A stretch of 62,373 bases of DNA, counting the filler, from Rhabdomonas costata (Eukaryota): the NCBI GenBank assembly GCA_019059605.1. It is 29 parts of 29 records of this genome, joined end to end, with 100 filler letters (N's around TTAATTAATTAA, not from the genome) between each part and the next. Parts side by side here need not be neighbours in the genome. Positions count along the whole stretch, not along the records: positions 1 to 2,056 come from JAHMHO010006034.1; 28 more parts are not named here. One strand, given 5' to 3'. The position numbers and the translations under genes were made by a program. Below the pieces are notes generated by a model, which was not told the DNA's origin, ran no database searches, and saw only the letters and a list, made by a program, of their open reading frames with translations. The stretch's first letter is position 1; each line of letters starts with the position of its first letter. Shown here one piece after another: positions 1 through 28,657 of the stretch.

Positions 1-1525
1 TGTGGGTCTTCCACGCACAGCTGGGAAAGCACCCGCGCAGCAAGAACCCGCTGCGCCACAACCTGAGAGACACAGAGCCAAAGGGGAAGAAGAAGGGAAC
101 TTCGGAGACTGCGAAGAGACGTCCCACTTCAACTTGGACGCAGTTTAAAAGGAAATGCGGGTAAGAACCTGGAAAAGGCAACGGGTGATGCTTCACGAAA
201 ACTTTTTGCGAGGGTGGTGCCCCAAAGCAACGCAGCGACTGTCACAAATGCTGTGGCTTGAAGACGGTGTTGCAGAGAAGACATGGTGAGGACACCAAAC
301 ACTTTCAAAAGCTCAAAATCTTCTTCATAAAAACATACACAAACACATACAACACTTTCAAAATGCAAACTCAATGATTTCAACGCCATGGTGTCCCCCC
401 CTAACTATCACCAGAAACTTCAAAACAAGTTCCGAGGGTGCCCTGAGAGAGCTTTGAGCGCTTTGAACCTGGCTGCGGAGGCCACAGAACAGCGCGTCGA
501 CCTTCTCCTCAACGGTGGCGGTCGGGCCACTGAGGCCCTCCTGGGACTCTTCCCAGGCGGCAGGGAGCTCTGCCACAGGGACGTATGGCGGAGCGGTGGG
601 AGGTGGCTTTGCGGTGGTCTCCAACTTGGGCTTCGTGCCGCATGTCGTTGTGCCGCCGTAGCTTCGCTGGGAGCGGTGCAGTGCCACGGGGAAAGCCCGT
701 CCGGCGACGCTCCATGGGAGGGCGTCTGCTCCACTGCGCGGCCCCACAATCTCGCGGAAGACGACCTTGGACAGCACTGCTGGCAAGGAGGCGTCGGCGC
801 GGTCAAGGCGATCTTGGGGGGTCTCGTCTTCGTCTTCCCCACCCTCCTCTTCAACTTCATCCTCCAGGGAATTCCCGCGAAGAAAGGAGGGAAGCAACAC
901 GGTACTCTACGTCTTCTTGGCAACCGGTTTGCTGTTCTTGAAGTTTTCTTCCAATGAAATAAGGCCAGTGGATGATAATAAAATTCGTATCTACGCTGCT
1001 CCTGTTAGCGATGTGAATAGACCGATCGAACTGGGGAGGGGAAGTGGTGCTACCCCCCCCCCCCCAAGAAAAAACGCGCGAGCAGCCTGCCACACAACGG
1101 TGCCGGCAACGCAGGACTTTCACCAGAGTGGCAGTGAGCACTTTTTCCAAATCGCCGGTGGAAGTGCAACCAAAGCGATCCACAACACCAAGAAGAACCA
1201 TTTGGGGCGTGCTACGAGCTTGGCCAATCGCCAAAACCACCTTATTATCTCTTTCCCTAGCGTGCAGCGGCCACCTAAAGCCTCCCTCCCTTTGCCGCAT
1301 GGTCTCCCTGAGCGTCTCTGCCTCCCCAGACAGCAGCATCCCTCCACCGTGAGCCTGGGCCAGAGCAGAGAACGAGGGCAGGGCCTCCCCGGGCTTCACC
1401 CCATGTCTCTCCCACAACTCCCGCCGAAGGCTGGCCTGTTCCTCGGTGAGTCCCCCAAGCTGAACAACATCGCGAGCAACTTCCCGCCGGGTACGAGGAC
1501 CGCTGGGAGGTTCTCCAGAGGACAT
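1..1525 (-). CDS. RPAP1/MINIYO-like protein, 5' part, 3 exons (partial)
   Basis: Exons 1525-1297 (MSSGEPP...ETM), 878-469 (RGNSLEDEVEEE...FPVALHRS...LRSQ) and 62-1 (VVAQRVLAARVLSQL). Intron 468-63 is GT-AG; intron 1296-879 is non-canonical. FPVAxHRS and LRSQVxAQRxLA resemble RPAP1/IYO motifs as I recall them, but their spacing is short. Confidence 0.45.
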
Positions 1526-2056
1526 TACCCCCAGACAAAGGCAGCAGAAGCAACAGAGAGAGAAAGATGCGAGACGGAGGGAGGGGTCAAGCTTGCTGGA
1601 AAAGGGAAAGGGGGCACACAGCCTCACACTTACACTGCCACCCCAGCCAAGGCCAAGCCTCCCAAGGCAACGACAAAAGAAACAACCAATTTGAGCTCCG
1701 GCAAGAATGATCTCGAATGCGCTGCATCGGGAGCGGCACACACAGCAGGGAGAAGTTGCACATTCCATCAATATACCCTGTAAACATACACCCTGAACTC
1801 AAGCACTATACGTCACGAAGAAAGTGCAAAATCAGAAACTTTCATATAACATGGAATTCCCCCCCCCCAAGCAATTCTATAGAGCAAATCACTTCCCAAT
1901 TCCTTCCTCATTTGTTTCCCCGAAAAGTTTCCATACTGCTCAGCAACGAGCATATCGAAACTGCAGGAACTGTTTTACCGTAAGAAGGGACATCGAACAA
2001 ATAGGTGACGCGCCGAGAAGCGCGAAGAAAAGAAAACAAAACGGAGACAAACAACA

Positions 2057-3507: not shown

Positions 3508-5068
3508 CTGCTGCTGCGCCCTGGTTGCCCTCTGCCCCCCGAAAAGAATTCATGGGAGTCCTAACAGAGTAGTAGAAAGCGCATTGAAGTTCGGCGCAAG
3601 ACTGGATTCGTCCATGCAACCGTGTCCTTTATATGTCAGAGTTTGGTCCAATGTCTGTGAATCCCTTTTTTTGGTGGTGGTGGGTGGGTGGGTGGATCGA
3701 TGTCCCCTCCGATGGATCAGGCTAGACTCTGGCCTTGAACTCGCATCTGTGGTTGCTTGTGGGCATCTGCTGCAGAAACTGATGGCACCTCGAAACGGCA
3801 GGCGTCGTTTTGTCCTCTGCTTTTTTTTTCAGACAACGCTGAACTGATTCGCGTTATACTTGCTGCGACACCCGGGCTGTTCGACGCGGCTGTTGCTGCG
3901 GTATACTCTGCGACGTCTTGTTTTTTACCCCGCCATGTATGTGTGTACAATGCCTTCGTGTAATTTGCCGCGTTAATTGTGTCTTTTCGAGGTGGACAAT
4001 GCCCCAGCACGGTCCGGGGCACACACTAGCTTTTTTAAAAAGTAAATCCTCTCTCTCTCTCTCACGGGCTCTTCTTCTTTGCTTGTTAGATACTCGGGCG
4101 GCGCTGCATTAGACCCCGGGGTTTCTAGGGGAGGGCCTCCCAGCAGGCAATCTCTCTCCGGGCATCTGATGCGCAAACCTTCGACGGGAAGGCAATACTT
4201 CGGTTGAGTNNNNNNNNNNNNNNNNNNNNNNNNNNNNNNNNNNNNNNNNNNNNTTAATTAATTAANNNNNNNNNNNNNNNNNNNNNNNNNNNNNNNNNNN
4301 NNNNNNNNNGGGTGGTTGGATTAGAAAACATTCATTGAGTTAAGATCTTTGCAGGCAGTTAGAGTGCATCTTGGGTCGCCGAGCGCAACGGTGCTTTCAT
4401 GCGCCGAGCTCCCATGCCATCTCTTCTTCGGCGGTTACGCGATATTTGTTGTGGTGGTAATTTGTTCGCTTACCCCAAAATGGCAAAAAAAAAATCTACA
4501 GTCGAAGCTTTTACATTCCGAACACGAACCCAGGATTTCGTTCCGTCACCGCAACACTATGTGCGAATTACCTGTGGCCCCCGTGGTACCGGTGGTTCCA
4601 CAACGCAGGCTGCCATCGGTCGATAGCCAATCAACCAATCAGCGCCAGCCAATCAGCCAATCGGGTACAACAGCTAGCGTGCTTTCGCGCAACACACAGT
4701 GAGGAGTTACCCTAAAATTCATGACTGCTCTCTCCATTGCATGAATGCAATGGGCGGCGGGTGCCCATGTATGGGCAAACGTATCTGACCGTAAATAGTG
4801 GTCACGCTGAAATGTTTTTCAAATTGAAGCAATGGATATTTCTTCACTTTCTTTGAGTTTTGGTCAGAAGCGGTTCTGGCGAAGCGGGAGTCAGTCCAGC
4901 ACCAAACCGGCCCACTGCACGGCAGACGCGACCATCCACAGCTCCGCCCCTCGGCCAGCCAGGCCTCCATCCCAGATCGACCTCGCCTGACTGCCTAAAC
5001 TTCCCTCGGACATTCCCATTATCATTGTATGCACCATTGCATACTAGGCCAGCTCCCTCTGCGCTCAG

Positions 5069-6183
5069 GTTTGCCGTGCGGCAGTTTGTGTTCGTGATGG
5101 TAGTGCTTTCCGTGGTAGAGCTGATCCTGTTTGAGCTGGGGCTATACACGGAGGGCCACTGGAGTGCCTCCGACGGCTACCCGTACTGTGCGGTGGTGAA
5201 GCTGTTCTCCGTGGTGTTTGCGATGAAGCACCTGATCTGGTTCTACCTGTGCTTGAAGGAGGAGCTGGCGGGGTGCCGGCCCCTGCCCAAGCTGCTGTGC
5301 ATCAAGGGGGTGGTCTTCCTGACCTTCATTCAAGGCTGGGTGTTGGCATTCTTTGTGAAGGTTAAGGTGATCCGGCCCCGAGGAAACTTTACGGGTGTGC
5401 TGCATGTTTGTGTGCGTGCGTGTGCGTTTTCATGCCGTGAAGGCCCGACGTGGAGGATTGCAGACTTCTGGAGTTGCGTAAGATCACGATGGCTGAAGGT
5501 ACACTGTGAAAGGGCGCCGACGAAGCTGCAACCCATTCCATGCAGCAGCACTTTAGTGAGGACAGGTGTTCGAGGGCAGTGGCAGTGAATGGTACTACGG
5601 CAGAACGTGGGAATAGCTATCATTTGGTGCACTTCCCAGTGGAGGCTCCTGCATGGATTGGATTGGGGCGGGGTGGGCGCAGCCCTCTCTTTCTCTCTTG
5701 CTGTGTCTCGTGCCTGTGGGGATTTTCCTTCTCTCTTGAATGGAATTCTTGGCCGCGCGCTTTGCATTAGTTTTTCGCGTTGTGCTGCTGAACACGTAGC
5801 ATTATTGATGACCTCCTTTCCAGGTAAGATGGGGTTCTTCTCTCCCTGTCTTCATCCCTTTGCTGTTCTCCGCATAAAAGACTTTTGGTTGTCCCAAAAC
5901 GTGTCGACCGGTCGTGACTATTTTCTGTGATGGCACAGGTCTCGTAGCCTTCTTTGTCCACCCTGTTACAAATTCACACAGAGGCGGACGTTTCTCTGGC
6001 GTGGCAGAACTACCTTCTCTGCCTGGAGATGCTCGTGTTCTCCATACTACACTGCTTCTACTTTCCCCACGATGAGTACAAGCGGAACCCCGGTCCCGGT
6101 GCCGAGGGAACGGTGGCTGGCACTCCCGTGGGGTCGGCGACGCCTCAAGCTCACGGCGAGGACTTCGCCTTCCGGCAATCCTC
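5069..6183 (+). CDS. TMEM184 / organic solute transporter OST-alpha family protein, internal exons
   Basis: Exons 5069-5394 and 5982-6183 joined by a GT-AG intron. Family motifs RPLPKLLCIKGVVFLTFIQG and QNYLLCLEM...LH..YFP..EY are present. Confidence 0.9.
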
Positions 6184-6226
6184 GTAAGAACAGTTGCTTT
6201 TCCAGTCGAGCCGTTCCCAGACGGGC

Positions 6227-6360
6227 GTGGGGATAGAAAAACTGATGTCCTTGCGCCACAAGACAGTAAGAGGGGCGGAGGAGGACGGGGAGTAGATAGG
6301 AGCCGTTTCGGTTCCCTAAGCTGTCTTGTGGCGCAAGGACATCAGTTTTTCTACCCCCAC
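6227..6360. repeat. 40-bp inverted repeat at contig end (probable amplification fold-back)
   Basis: 6227-6266 versus 6321-6360: 39 of 40 positions complementary; the right arm ends 2 nt from the contig end. Confidence 0.9.
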
Positions 6361-25760: not shown

Positions 25761-27817
25761 ANNNNNNNNNNNNNNNNNNNNNNNNNNNNNNNNNNNNNNN
25801 NNNNNTTAATTAATTAANNNNNNNNNNNNNNNNNNNNNNNNNNNNNNNNNNNNNNNNNNNNTTGTTTGTGTTATAGAAGATAAAAAAGCAAAACAAATTG
25901 CGTAGAAATTCCAGAAAAACATGAAAAAAGAGAGAAAATGGCATGTATGACCACCATGATCCGTCTTGTGTGCACTCAGTATGGGTGATGGGAGTAAAAA
26001 TGCTTGCTTGTAATGGTCGCATACTCGCATGCGCTCCTTCCTTCATGTAAAGAAGGAACCCAATGAACAACGGAACCCAAGACCTTGACCCCGAGCCACG
26101 AGCCCAGAGACCCAGAACGCAAGAACAACTACACGAGTTCAGCAGTGTAGCCTCCCTCAGCACCACGAATACCGAATCATGACCCAACATCTGACTCCGA
26201 ACCACGCGTGTGTTAGGAGTAATGTGGTGACCAATTCCATCCATTGTGTCGTGGCGGCAGGTATTTTGTCGGCAGGAAAGTGTCTTTTTTGCGGTGTGTG
26301 GTATAAATGGTTACTCAACACAAAGGACAGTTTGTAATGTGATCTTTGTGGTAAGGTCATGTGAAAGGGGCGAAACATAAGTTTGCTTTGCAAGCTGTTT
26401 CGCCATTTTTGAATGCGTGAACGCACACTCGGTTCGTAACCGCGGCCCCAAACAAAATTTTAGTGAAACGTGCCAATGGAAAGGAAGCGTGGTCACGCGA
26501 GATGCGGTCAGGGCCCCCGTCGGGCGATCCAAAATGTGTGGTCAGATGCGGTTATCAAATGAGGTTAGGACGTGCAGACGACAGACCCCCAAACCAAATT
26601 GGAAGGCCGTGGGATGAAAACCTGGGAACTATCCATCTCGAAGCACTTTCCCAAACTTCAAAGCTTCATCCTGGCGCCGTGCTGTGGACGGTTTCTTGTT
26701 AACCTTTTTTTCCCCGTCTTTCCTCGAATTCTGTGCTTTCTGAATGGTCGCGTTTCTTTTAAGGCAAAAGGGCGTGCAGTTTTTTCTGTTTATGTCCGAT
26801 TATGTCCTGCCTGGTCCTCATGTCGACCGTTATCGCTCTCAAGATTGCGCGCCGTCCAAATCGAAGCGGGCAAAGCCATAATGGAAAGCGCTATGGAGGC
26901 CTACGGGCGCAGCGGTTCGAGATCAAAAGCACCGGCGGTAATTGCAGATAAGAGTATAGTTGTGCAGGTTGAAAGCCGCTAAGTATGTTGGCAAACACTT
27001 TTGATCCGATCTACAGCCGTGCGGACGATGCCCATATCAGCAAGCACCTGTGCCTGTTTTTTTTTGACGTGGTGCTACACAGTATCGTGTTGGGAAAGGG
27101 GTAAATTTGTTGGAAGGGTGCTGGAAACCCGCTCTGGATATGTCCGTGGTCGTGCAGGATGAGCGGCTCTGAGGCAATGAGGGCAAAACAGTTGTGAATG
27201 ATGATATTACCTCGACAAGAATTTTCGAATCGATAATGTGTTTGCGAGTATATGCGTGCACTTTGCGCGTTTCAGGTGATGTCTTCTCTGAATGGAGCTG
27301 CACACGACACGTTTTACTGTGAGACCTGTCGACGGATCTTCAACCATGCAAACCAACGTGACACACCCGGCTCCACTCCTCTCACTTCAGCTGAAGAGGC
27401 GACCGCACGTCACGCGAATACACGACACGATCGTACACTATCGTAAAAGCTTGCGAGACTTCTTGGAAGGCGCTTCGTACTCAGAACGGCAGGTATCAGC
27501 CCGTAGACATTCATGAAACTGATCAAACCGGTCCCCTGGCACCACAGCGCCGGGATGAAAATCGATCCACTTCTTCCACAATGGGTCCCCCTGTGGACAG
27601 AAACCACATGCAAGATCGTTACAGACAGAAACAGAGTTCATAGGTCCGATTCGGCACCGACTCGTCTGGAGATCCTACAGGACCCCGGTAAGAGCACGGT
27701 GTAACAATTCAGGCGACAAGCACAAACCGTGTTTGCACACGATTGCGAAGAAGAACGGGCAACATTGCTCAATAGAGAGAGAGCGGGTGGTAGAGCAAAT
27801 GCACGCCTTGAGGGTCG

Positions 27818-27910
27818 CCAGGTGAGAAGAATAACAAAATCCGAACATAGGTAATGCTCCCTAACCCCAGGTGAGAAGAATAACAAAATCCGAACATAGG
27901 TAATGCTCCC
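27818..27910. repeat. Direct tandem duplication of a ~44-bp unit at contig end
   Basis: CCAGGTGAGAAGAATAACAAAATCCGAACATAGGTAATGCTCCC occurs twice, 49 bp apart. Confidence 0.9.
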
Positions 27911-28657
27911 AAACCCNNNNNNNNNNNNNNNNNNNNNNNNNNNNNNNNNNNNNNNNNNNNTTAATTAATTAANNNNNNNNNNNNNNNNNNNNNNNNNNNN
28001 NNNNNNNNNNNNNNNNGGGGGGGGGTGGGCTAAAACAGAAAAGAAAGTACAGCACAACACACACATGTGTGCGTTTTCCCTGAACAAGCTGGCGCCAAGG
28101 AGCAGATGTCTGGGGTGAGATGAAGAAGGTACAATGCGAGACAAAATGGAATGTGCAGTGTGCTGGATATAATGCACAGCAGTAGCATCCCACAGCGTCC
28201 TTCGCCTCTGAGCAAACTACAGTGCGGGCTGACGTGCTGGAATCCGTCAGACTTGAGCGAGCTCATAATCCGAAAATGTCCACCTCGATATGTTCCCCTG
28301 CATCACCAATTGCAACTGTACATAGGGATTAGGGAGACTTCCAGGACAGGGGCATAAATGCCATCGAAGCCAGAAAAAGAGCACGGTGAGAGGCAAGAAG
28401 GCAAGAAGCACACCGCTAACATTGATGACCCTCCGGAAATATACTGTGCCAAAGATTCCACCGTCGCACGCGACACATGTTATAAACTAAATAACAAAGC
28501 TAACCTAAACTCTGCACTGACGACACATCGGAACCACATGCCGCAAACAGAAAATGGCACAGTCCTGGGCAACTGCTTCCATAAGCCTCTAATTTCCGTT
28601 TCAAGTTCTGCCAAACCTCGTCATGGCATTAGCAGCGACAGATAGGCTAAGGCGAAC

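What the first reader, a model, noticed from the sequence alone, without database searches (positions are those of the whole stretch)
879..1296. Candidate non-conventional (non-GT-AG) intron with base-paired ends in the RPAP1-like gene
Seen: the two minus-strand coding blocks are in different frames. Removing 1296-879 joins them as ...ETM-R-GNSLEDEVEEE. The removed 418 nt begin GGCAAAGGGAGGGAGGC and end GCTTCCCTCCTTTCTTC, forming a 13-bp stem (AAGGGAGGGAGGC/GCTTCCCTCCTTT, two G-U pairs) that starts a few nt inside C|G junctions at both ends. Known: euglenid non-conventional introns have Y|R junctions held together by a terminal stem, and their splicing machinery is unidentified. Inference: this is such an intron, in the same gene as a GT-AG intron. 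The only in-frame GT-AG alternative I found uses a GAG acceptor near 905 with no pyrimidine tract.
Basis: partly seen in the sequence, partly recalled or inferred. Interest (0 to 1): 0.75.

Follow-up and report, generated by a model that had tools for sequence, protein, structure and literature searches.

The report
Probable hairpin-ended intron, borders uncertain
A roughly 420-460-base interruption in a euglenid gene for an RNA-polymerase assembly factor folds back on itself like the odd, non-GT-AG introns already known from Euglena and its relatives, so it is probably one more example of a known oddity, but no RNA data were available and its exact ends could not be fixed.

Summary
The 13-bp stem, the C|G junctions and the frame change are in the sequence. 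The genome is euglenid-type and the gene is probably RPAP1 (motif only). A nonconventional intron is therefore likely (about 0.78), but 1296-879 is one of several in-frame border pairs (about 0.25). It fits the Y|R rule but fails the Euglena CDG/CHG code and starts GG where 7 of 7 published Rhabdomonas cases start GC. The outermost firm pairs are CAG/CTG and point to 1313-860. No RNA reads or homologous proteins could be had. The scan has noted many similar introns on other pieces of this genome. Verdict: new member of a known kind, unverified; low interest.

The parts
1596..1620 (-). Pyrimidine tract and CAG acceptor upstream of the first ATG; likely trans-splice or upstream-intron acceptor
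   Evidence: acceptor score 7.9, 88th percentile of 105 predicted acceptors; use inferred
1297..1525 (-). First coding block (ATG at 1525); its 3' end lies somewhere between 1322 and 1296 under the nonconventional models
   Evidence: codon score +0.11 per codon; cumulative score from 1354 peaks at codon 1297; a second strong acceptor at 1355 (7.8) could give a later start at ATG 1339
879..1296 (-). TC|G); one of several in-frame border pairs
860..1313 (-). Alternative intron defined by the outermost firm CAG/CTG pairs with 3-nt and 5-nt spacers (454 nt, C|GC ... GA|T); related options 1313-866, 1298-866, 1295-866, 1300-859, 1321-859, 1321-877
1295..1312 (-). 5' arm of the outer helices (pairs with 862-880), including CAG 1310-1308
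   Evidence: pair probabilities 0.45-1.0, 0.76-1.0 for 1310-1304
1280..1292 (-). 5' arm of the 13-bp helix
1256..1275 (-). 5' arm of the inner helices (1275-1268 with 919-926; 1266-1264 with 930-932; 1261-1256 with 964-970); holds the best GT donor (1274)
   Evidence: pair probabilities 0.87-1.0 for the paired bases; donor score 5.2, 56th percentile
883..895 (-). 3' arm of the 13-bp helix, which is also the pyrimidine tract
862..880 (-). 3' arm of the outer helices, including CTG 867-865, the AG-less site at 875 and the first AG (GAG, 862)
469..878 (-). Second coding block (5' end between 878 and 852); acidic stretch, then FPVALHRS at 693-670
   Evidence: codon score +0.17 per codon; motif position; one substitution from the FPVARHRS motif of IYO/RPAP1
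63..468 (-). Conventional GT-AG intron, 406 nt, phase 0
   Evidence: donor 2.9, acceptor 8.6; flanking codons
5..62 (-). Start of the third exon, which continues on G000:C27730 (L104 1098-877); HEAT/ARM-like
   Evidence: 77-nt overlap of the two contigs; Atlas neighbours HEAT/ARM at 0.91-0.93 (lead only)

Best explanation
A euglenid nonconventional intron interrupts the 5' part of a probable RPAP1 gene. SHOWN by computation: the two ends of the interruption can pair over five co-linear helices, which brings the two coding blocks side by side and buries both the best GT donor and the pyrimidine tract; the pyrimidine tract is not followed by a usable AG. INFERRED from the family: the pre-mRNA folds into this long hairpin, a machinery that is not yet identified recognises the foot of the stem and a purine at the start of the next exon, cuts and joins the exons, and releases the intron as a circle, after the spliceosome has removed the GT-AG intron 468-63. 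NOT DETERMINED: the cut sites. These shares are my judgement from the calls cited, not a computed posterior.
For: Euglenid-type genome: exact 19-nt Rhabdomonas spliced-leader 3' part plus GT once in G000, reversed control 0. Flank duplex -54.5 kcal/mol: 1 of 103 and 0 of 103 predicted conventional introns in the two matching geometries, 2 of 1000 dinucleotide shuffles of the two flanks. Terminal 25-nt duplex: 0 of 104. Codon score peaks at 1297 and falls about 26 units across the insert; -0.18 per codon against a 5th percentile of +0.08 for 196 coding segments. Conventional acceptors in frame are poor: 907 = -4.0, 905 = -5.7, 862 = 3.7 with GAG, seen in 3 of 105 acceptors. 3' end TTC|GC resembles the pyrimidine-rich Y|G ends of the 7 published Rhabdomonas cases. 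All four Y|R positions of Milanowski 2016 are met at 1296/879. The outermost firm pairs read CAG/CTG, and 1313 +3..+7 reads TCAGG against the CCAGG consensus of E. gracilis.
Against: No in-frame pair meets all published rules: 1296/879 lacks CDG/CHG and starts GG; 1313/860 ends A|T although a purine starts the next exon in 55 of 55 cases; 1300/859 meets the code by letter but its CGG and CTG do not pair in the fold. Looser nulls give 4-9%, and the windows were chosen after seeing the fold. Nonconventional introns are rare in the published heterotroph: 105 contigs with read support, 7 checked by hand. The null set is predicted, not transcript-verified. The insert keeps a weak coding-like signal in the frame of the first block.
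Confidence: 0.78

Rival explanations
1. An ordinary spliceosomal intron 1274-875 whose acceptor reads CGG|G in this assembly instead of CAG|G (base error, allele, or a rare true GT-GG intron). The stem would be a chance match of a purine-rich exon end to the pyrimidine tract.
For: 1274 is the best donor of the region (5.2, 56th percentile) and is in phase with 875; the 875 window would score 9.6 (96th percentile) if its -2 base were canonical. The published heterotroph assembly was made from amplified DNA at 10-20x. GT-GG calls occur in the published exonerate table (139 occurrences over the file's sheets).
Against: Needs the -54.5 kcal/mol pairing to be chance (1 of 103; 2 of 1000) and 7 codons scoring -1.9, which 3% of predicted exon ends do. 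GT-CG and GT-TG calls are as frequent (118 and 122 occurrences), so the class looks like alignment noise. GT-NG decoys of 7.4 or more exist in 36 of 94 pairs that have a good canonical solution. The tract-plus-CGG pattern is not enriched in G000 (3 matches, control 2).
Confidence: 0.1
2. An ordinary GT-AG intron with weak sites: 1240-862 (first AG after the tract), or 1240-907, 1274-905, or two introns around a small exon at 1030 or 1001.
For: GT-AG and GC-AG make up about 10,095 of 11,418 intron calls in the published heterotroph. 1240 (3.7) and 862 (3.7) are in phase and both inside the range of predicted sites (22nd and 15th percentile); acceptors at 1031 (3.8) and 1002 (2.8) exist.
Against: 1240-862 adds 19 codons scoring -7.3 and drops 5 good ones (total -9.2); GAG in 3 of 105 acceptors; 907 and 905 score below all 105; pairing unexplained (0 of 103); small-exon models need a further weak acceptor and codons that score negative.
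Confidence: 0.06
3. No regular splicing here: the stretch is coding or retained, with a one-base frameshift (assembly slip or damaged copy) between 906 and 860, or it yields a 222-aa product ending at TGA 859-857.
For: The first block's frame has 0 stops and 0 antisense stops over 140 codons while the other two frames have 22 (32 of 5000 and 0 of 5000 shuffles; 0 of 237 intron frames; 0 of 76 introns with an empty frame); 3-base periodicity is reached by 2 of 79 introns.
Against: Codon score -0.18 per codon, far below coding; 5 of 105 predicted introns are also open throughout in the upstream frame; the same frame is also open over about 270 nt of non-coding-looking DNA upstream of the ATG; no Pfam family or second copy; does not explain the pairing or the pyrimidine tract.
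Confidence: 0.06

Closest known systems
Putative nonconventional introns of Rhabdomonas costata (PMC8219788, Table S6; seven cases)
   Same: Few hundred bases, pyrimidine-rich 3' end cut at Y|G, irregular terminal stem with a purine-rich/pyrimidine-rich helix in several cases, no fixed CAG/CTG spacing, in a genome dominated by GT-AG introns.
   Different: GC-starting in-frame options exist but end at 877, 866, 860, 859 or 853, mostly past the pyrimidine tract. RPAP1 is not among the named hits of Tables S5-S6 (0 occurrences in the file), though unannotated contigs are listed there by number only.
Euglena nonconventional introns with the code 5'-N3CDG-/-CH'GN5-6|R (PMC12501133; also PMC4770533, PMC11170887)
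   Same: Non-GT-AG ends held by a stem; Y|R junctions at 1296/879; a paired CAG/CTG at the foot of the long stem with 3-nt and 5-nt spacers at 1313/860.
   Different: At 1296/879 positions +4..+6 are AAA and no CHG lies at -8..-6; at 1313/860 the next exon would start with T. The code covers 61.2% of E. agilis nonconventional introns, so failing it does not exclude the class.
Conventional/intermediate euglenid introns (GT/GC-AG with pairing ends; PMC3935182, PMC4770533)
   Same: A GT donor at 1274 whose first bases pair with sequence 45-52 nt before 875 (-15.8 kcal/mol, reached by 1 of 103 predicted introns).
   Different: There is no AG at the matching acceptor in the assembly.
Noncanonical introns of hemistasiid diplonemids (PMC12621601)
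   Different: Other lineage; there such introns are the majority in two species.

Membership tests
Euglenid nonconventional introns (Milanowski rules) | Segment is absent from the mature mRNA and has non-GT/GC-AG ends | not testable with these tools
Euglenid nonconventional introns (Milanowski rules) | Stable stem that brings the two ends together | tested here: met
   weaker under loose nulls
Euglenid nonconventional introns (Milanowski rules) | Y|R at both junctions | tested here: met
   C|G and C|G at 1296/879 (rule); also met by 1313/866, 1298/866, 1300/859; not by 1313/860
Euglenid nonconventional introns (Milanowski rules) | Pairing of +4..+6 with -8..-6 | tested here: inconclusive
   Not met at 1296/879 (+5 pairs with -5); met at 1313/860
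Euglenid nonconventional introns (Milanowski rules) | Excised as a circular RNA, without the spliceosome | not testable with these tools
   Family trait taken from passages
Euglena code N3CDG / CH'GN5-6|R | CDG exactly 3 nt after the 5' junction, complementary CHG 5-6 nt before the 3' junction, purine at exon start | tested here: not met
Of 3424 in-frame stop-free pairs 4 match the letters and 1 (1300/859) is complementary, but it does not pair in the fold. 1313/860 meets motif and spacers but not the purine.
Published Rhabdomonas nonconventional introns | Intron starts GC (7 of 7) | tested here: not met
   GG in the Y|G register 1296/879; GC only in the slide 1295/878 or at other borders
Published Rhabdomonas nonconventional introns | Pyrimidine-rich 3' end, Y|G junction (7 of 7) | tested here: met
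   At 879|878
Conventional spliceosomal intron | GT/GC donor in phase | tested here: met
   1274 (5.2) and 1240 (3.7)
Conventional spliceosomal intron | YAG directly behind the pyrimidine tract | tested here: not met
   First AG is GAG at 862, 17 nt behind 879; 92 of 105 predicted acceptors are CAG or TAG
RPAP1 / IYO / Rba50 | N-terminal FPVARHRS-type motif | tested here: met
   FPVALHRS at 693-670, one substitution from the motif given in PMC6748027
RPAP1 / IYO / Rba50 | RPAP1_N and RPAP1_C Pfam domains | tested here: not met
   No RPAP1 family hit on any single exon; PF08620 found nothing in G000, but that search had no working control; a domain split by intron 468-63 may be missed
RPAP1 / IYO / Rba50 | Armadillo/HEAT repeats behind the N-terminal domains | tested here: inconclusive
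   Third exon draws HEAT/ARM clusters at 0.91-0.93 with recognition below the threshold

The most novel reading that the evidence does not exclude
That would give a second origin route and a second recognition rule for a splicing system whose machinery is unknown.
Probability: 0.07. Interest if true: 0.6.

Novelty: new member of a known kind. Interest (0 to 1): 0.22.

Why it matters
As one more hairpin-ended euglenid intron it changes little: the class is well described and has candidates in this genus in print. Its modest use is as a test case. The competing borders make different predictions (Euglena CAG/CTG ruler: 1313-860; GC start with Y|G end: 1313-866, 1298-866, 1295-866, 1321-859, 1321-877; innermost long helix: 1296-879), so one junction read would say which rule a heterotrophic euglenid follows, which bears on the open question of how these introns are recognised.

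Tried and rejected
Relatives: exon 2 against longer proteins, 0 of 992 candidates; against all representatives, 2 hits, both unrelated repeat proteins; exon-1 frame, 0 of 7; exon 3, 0 of 977; PDB sequences, 0 for exon 2 and one chance-level hit (E 1.7) for exon 3; Atlas, nothing usable for exon 2. Repeat or mobile origin: one DNA match and one protein match in G000, both itself; the 15-nt 5' motif occurs 3 times against 6 for the control and the other two are in unrelated contexts; no Rfam match to E 1; no earlier scan finding by sequence. A gene on the plus strand (ORF 662-1783): codon score -0.15 and no Pfam family above noise: rejected. A systematic GG-acceptor class: not enriched (counts small, 3 and 4). 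A 49-nt mini-intron 910-862 behind a long first exon: donor 910 is below the listing threshold of 1.5 and the codons before it score strongly negative: rejected. Second block as first exon after trans-splicing: no Met, no AG at the tract: rejected. Building my own verified set of nonconventional introns from 159 exon pairs failed: candidates could not be told from chance. No structure or complex was predicted.

Full report
SETTING. The window is 29 unrelated contigs joined by spacers. The finding lies on G000:C6034 (window 1-2056), single copy, in an assembly of 97.2 Mb in 104,289 contigs. G000 holds one exact match to the 3' 19 nt of the spliced leader published for Rhabdomonas costata followed by GT, with 0 matches for the reversed control; the 5' 8 nt differ. 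I take the organism to be a Rhabdomonas-type heterotrophic euglenid (inference). The gene is on the minus strand: first block from ATG 1525, second block to 469, a GT-AG intron 468-63, and a third exon that continues on G000:C27730. FPVALHRS at 693-670 is one substitution from the FPVARHRS motif described for IYO/RPAP1, and the third exon has HEAT/ARM-like neighbours in the Atlas (lead only). No RPAP1 Pfam domain and no relative was found, so 'RPAP1' is probable, not shown. Further likenesses to RPAP1 that I recall come from no call and are not used.

OBSERVATION. The 418 nt, the end sequences, the C|G junctions and the 13-bp helix with two G-U pairs are as stated; pair probabilities are 0.92-1.0. 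The second block has no Met in frame, so some joining event is needed. Two statements are wrong or incomplete. Many in-frame GT-AG pairs exist. And the pairing does not stop at the proposed borders: 1312-1304 pairs with 862-871, 1302-1301 with 874-875, 1299-1295 with 876-880, then come the 13-bp helix, 1275-1268 with 919-926, 1266-1264 with 930-932 and 1261-1256 with 964-970; the helices from 1310 inwards are the same in three folding contexts, while 1312-1311 are weak.

A MODEL OF THIS GENOME. I fetched the 100 first contigs (586,046 bases) and trained a codon model (404 segments). Of 136 of these segments sent to Pfam, 47 hit a family at E 0.01 or better in the predicted frame. Leaving out 6 contigs with retroelement-like, repeated or very long ORFs, 159 neighbouring segment pairs gave 105 in which the independently chosen donor and acceptor are in phase, where a third would be by chance. 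These 105 are predictions, not verified introns; they serve as the null set. Their acceptors are CAG 76, TAG 16, AAG 10, GAG 3. Best donor: 1274 (5.2, 56th percentile), then 1240 (3.7). In-frame AG acceptors: 862 (3.7, GAG), 907 (-4.0), 905 (-5.7). The AG-less site 875 would score 9.6 (96th percentile) with a canonical -2 base and is in phase with 1274.

IS THE PAIRING MORE THAN CHANCE? For: 1 of 1000 intron shuffles; 0 of 104 null introns at their ends, 3 of 104 within 40 nt of the donor, 0 of 104 with a 13-bp helix, and this tail against 104 other donor regions 0 of 104; the extended flanks give -54.5 kcal/mol, reached by 1 of 103 and 0 of 103 null introns in the geometries of the two conventional rivals and by 2 of 1000 shuffles that keep each flank's dinucleotides. 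Against: whole-region z = -1.87, 6 of 100 shuffles; the G run at 1065 pairs better with the tail in isolation; 6 of 158 pairs reach -26.9 under a free border search; 7 of 159 have a 13-bp helix in wide flanks; 9 of 102 reach the 40 x 60 nt energy with a sliding start; the windows were chosen after the fold was seen. I read this as real but not overwhelming: about 1 in 100, between 1 in 500 and 1 in 11 by the null chosen.

WHERE ARE THE BORDERS? It starts GG, where 7 of 7 start GC, and has AAA at +4..+6, so it fails the Euglena code, in which the 3-nt 5' spacer and the CAG/CTG pair were essential. The outermost firm pairs of the long stem are CAG 1310-1308 with CTG 867-865; with 3-nt and 5-nt spacers they define 1313-860, which is in frame and starts C|GC, but ends A|T; an exon-start T was tolerated in one of two tested Euglena introns. 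1313-866, 1298-866, 1295-866, 1321-877, 1321-859 and 1300-859 are also in frame, at codon costs of 0.5 to 3.3. The outer helix as chance exon-exon pairing has a frequency of 293 of 11,025 in register, 7 of 105 without register; the flanking codons score like exon ends (+1.5 and +1.6; 10% of intron starts reach 1.5). These two lines cancel, so the borders stay open. Two earlier scan notes on other pieces of this genome (e1-7218053, e1-7216723; unchecked) report cuts lying outside the stem, which raised my weight on the longer variants.

HOW IT WORKS. Shown by computation: a long irregular hairpin joins the ends and buries the best GT donor and the pyrimidine tract. Inferred from the family: recognition of the stem foot and a purine at the exon start by factors not yet identified, excision as a circle, after removal of the spliceosomal introns. 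These figures are judgement.

UNEXPLAINED. The first block's frame has no stop and no antisense stop over the 140 codons of the insert, while the other frames hold 22 such triplets (0 of 5000 shuffles; 0 of 237 null frames; 0 of 76 null introns); periodicity is reached by 2 of 79 null introns and the codon score (-0.18) is above the intron mean (-0.35, sd 0.10) but far below coding. The sense-strand part alone is not rare: 5 of 105 null introns are open throughout, and the same register is open upstream of the ATG too. I noticed this after the fact. It is the only hint of something new (an origin from coding DNA).

KNOWN OR NEW. Nonconventional introns are described for Euglena, Peranema and Rhabdomonas. 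In the published heterotroph, GT-AG and GC-AG make up about 10,095 occurrences against 11,418 rows of Table S2, 105 contigs have read-supported nonconventional borders and 7 were checked by hand. RPAP1 does not occur in that supplementary file; its first supplementary PDF is too large to read here, supplements 1-5 were not opened, and unannotated cases are listed by contig number only, so this intron may or may not be among the 105. Searches for other reports: 'nonconventional introns' + 'euglen' (23 papers), 'Rhabdomonas' + 'intron' (7), 'non-conventional introns' + 'euglen' + 'heterotrophic' from 2021 (0), and an intronization/exitron search (1 review); no title or abstract start listed deals with this gene. 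The scan itself has many similar notes on other pieces of this genome and none on this sequence. Verdict: new member of a known kind, unverified; interest 0.22.

PAPERS SEEN. PMC8219788: passages, section 7, supplement 6 parts 1 and 85 and three term counts. PMC12501133: parts 1-4 of 6 of the text. PMC4770533, PMC3935182, PMC11170887, PMC12621601, PMC6748027: passages. PMC6221363 and PMC11282704: search listing and start of abstract only. The 2021 paper on circular intron RNA: not read, known only as cited.

Noticed in passing
whole window: The window is a string of unrelated contigs of about 2.05 kb joined by N44-TTAATTAATTAA-N44 spacers (28 spacers); neighbouring pieces are not genomic neighbours. 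The finding lies on G000:C6034.
   Followed up: yes
857-1798 (-) and 662-1783 (+): One codon register is free of stops on both strands for about 900 nt, through the upstream non-coding-looking DNA, the first block and the insert. Only partly explained by chance.
   Followed up: partly
1308-1321 (-): By eye, the 14 bases from 1321 agree at 11 positions with the start of one of the seven published Rhabdomonas nonconventional introns; no statistic was run and many comparisons were possible.
   Followed up: no
1-4 and L104 1041-1117: The contig overlaps G000:C27730 by 77 nt but its last 4 bases differ from that contig: an assembly tip.
   Followed up: partly
L002 821-841 (-): The spliced-leader match has the published 3' 19 nt plus GT but not the published 5' 8 nt: a variant gene or a fragment.
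   Followed up: no
4860-6233 (+): Organic solute transporter alpha (PF03619, E 1e-29) exons separated by ordinary-looking GT-AG introns.
   Followed up: no
27817-27916 (+): A direct repeat of about 45 nt at a contig end, seen by eye; probably an assembly feature.
   Followed up: no
L012 about 5160-5600 (+); L086 (- strand positions about 3530-4430): Other inserts with strongly pairing ends between coding blocks (O-methyltransferase gene in L012); candidates for nonconventional introns.
   Followed up: partly
splice model from contigs C1-C100: Predicted conventional donors in this genome are loose behind GT (G at +5 in 66%, G at -1 in 92%), and the pairing of intron starts with -65..-28 was no stronger in own than in mismatched pairs (medians -7.2 and -7.4), which does not support a general start-to-end zipper in this sample.
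   Followed up: partly
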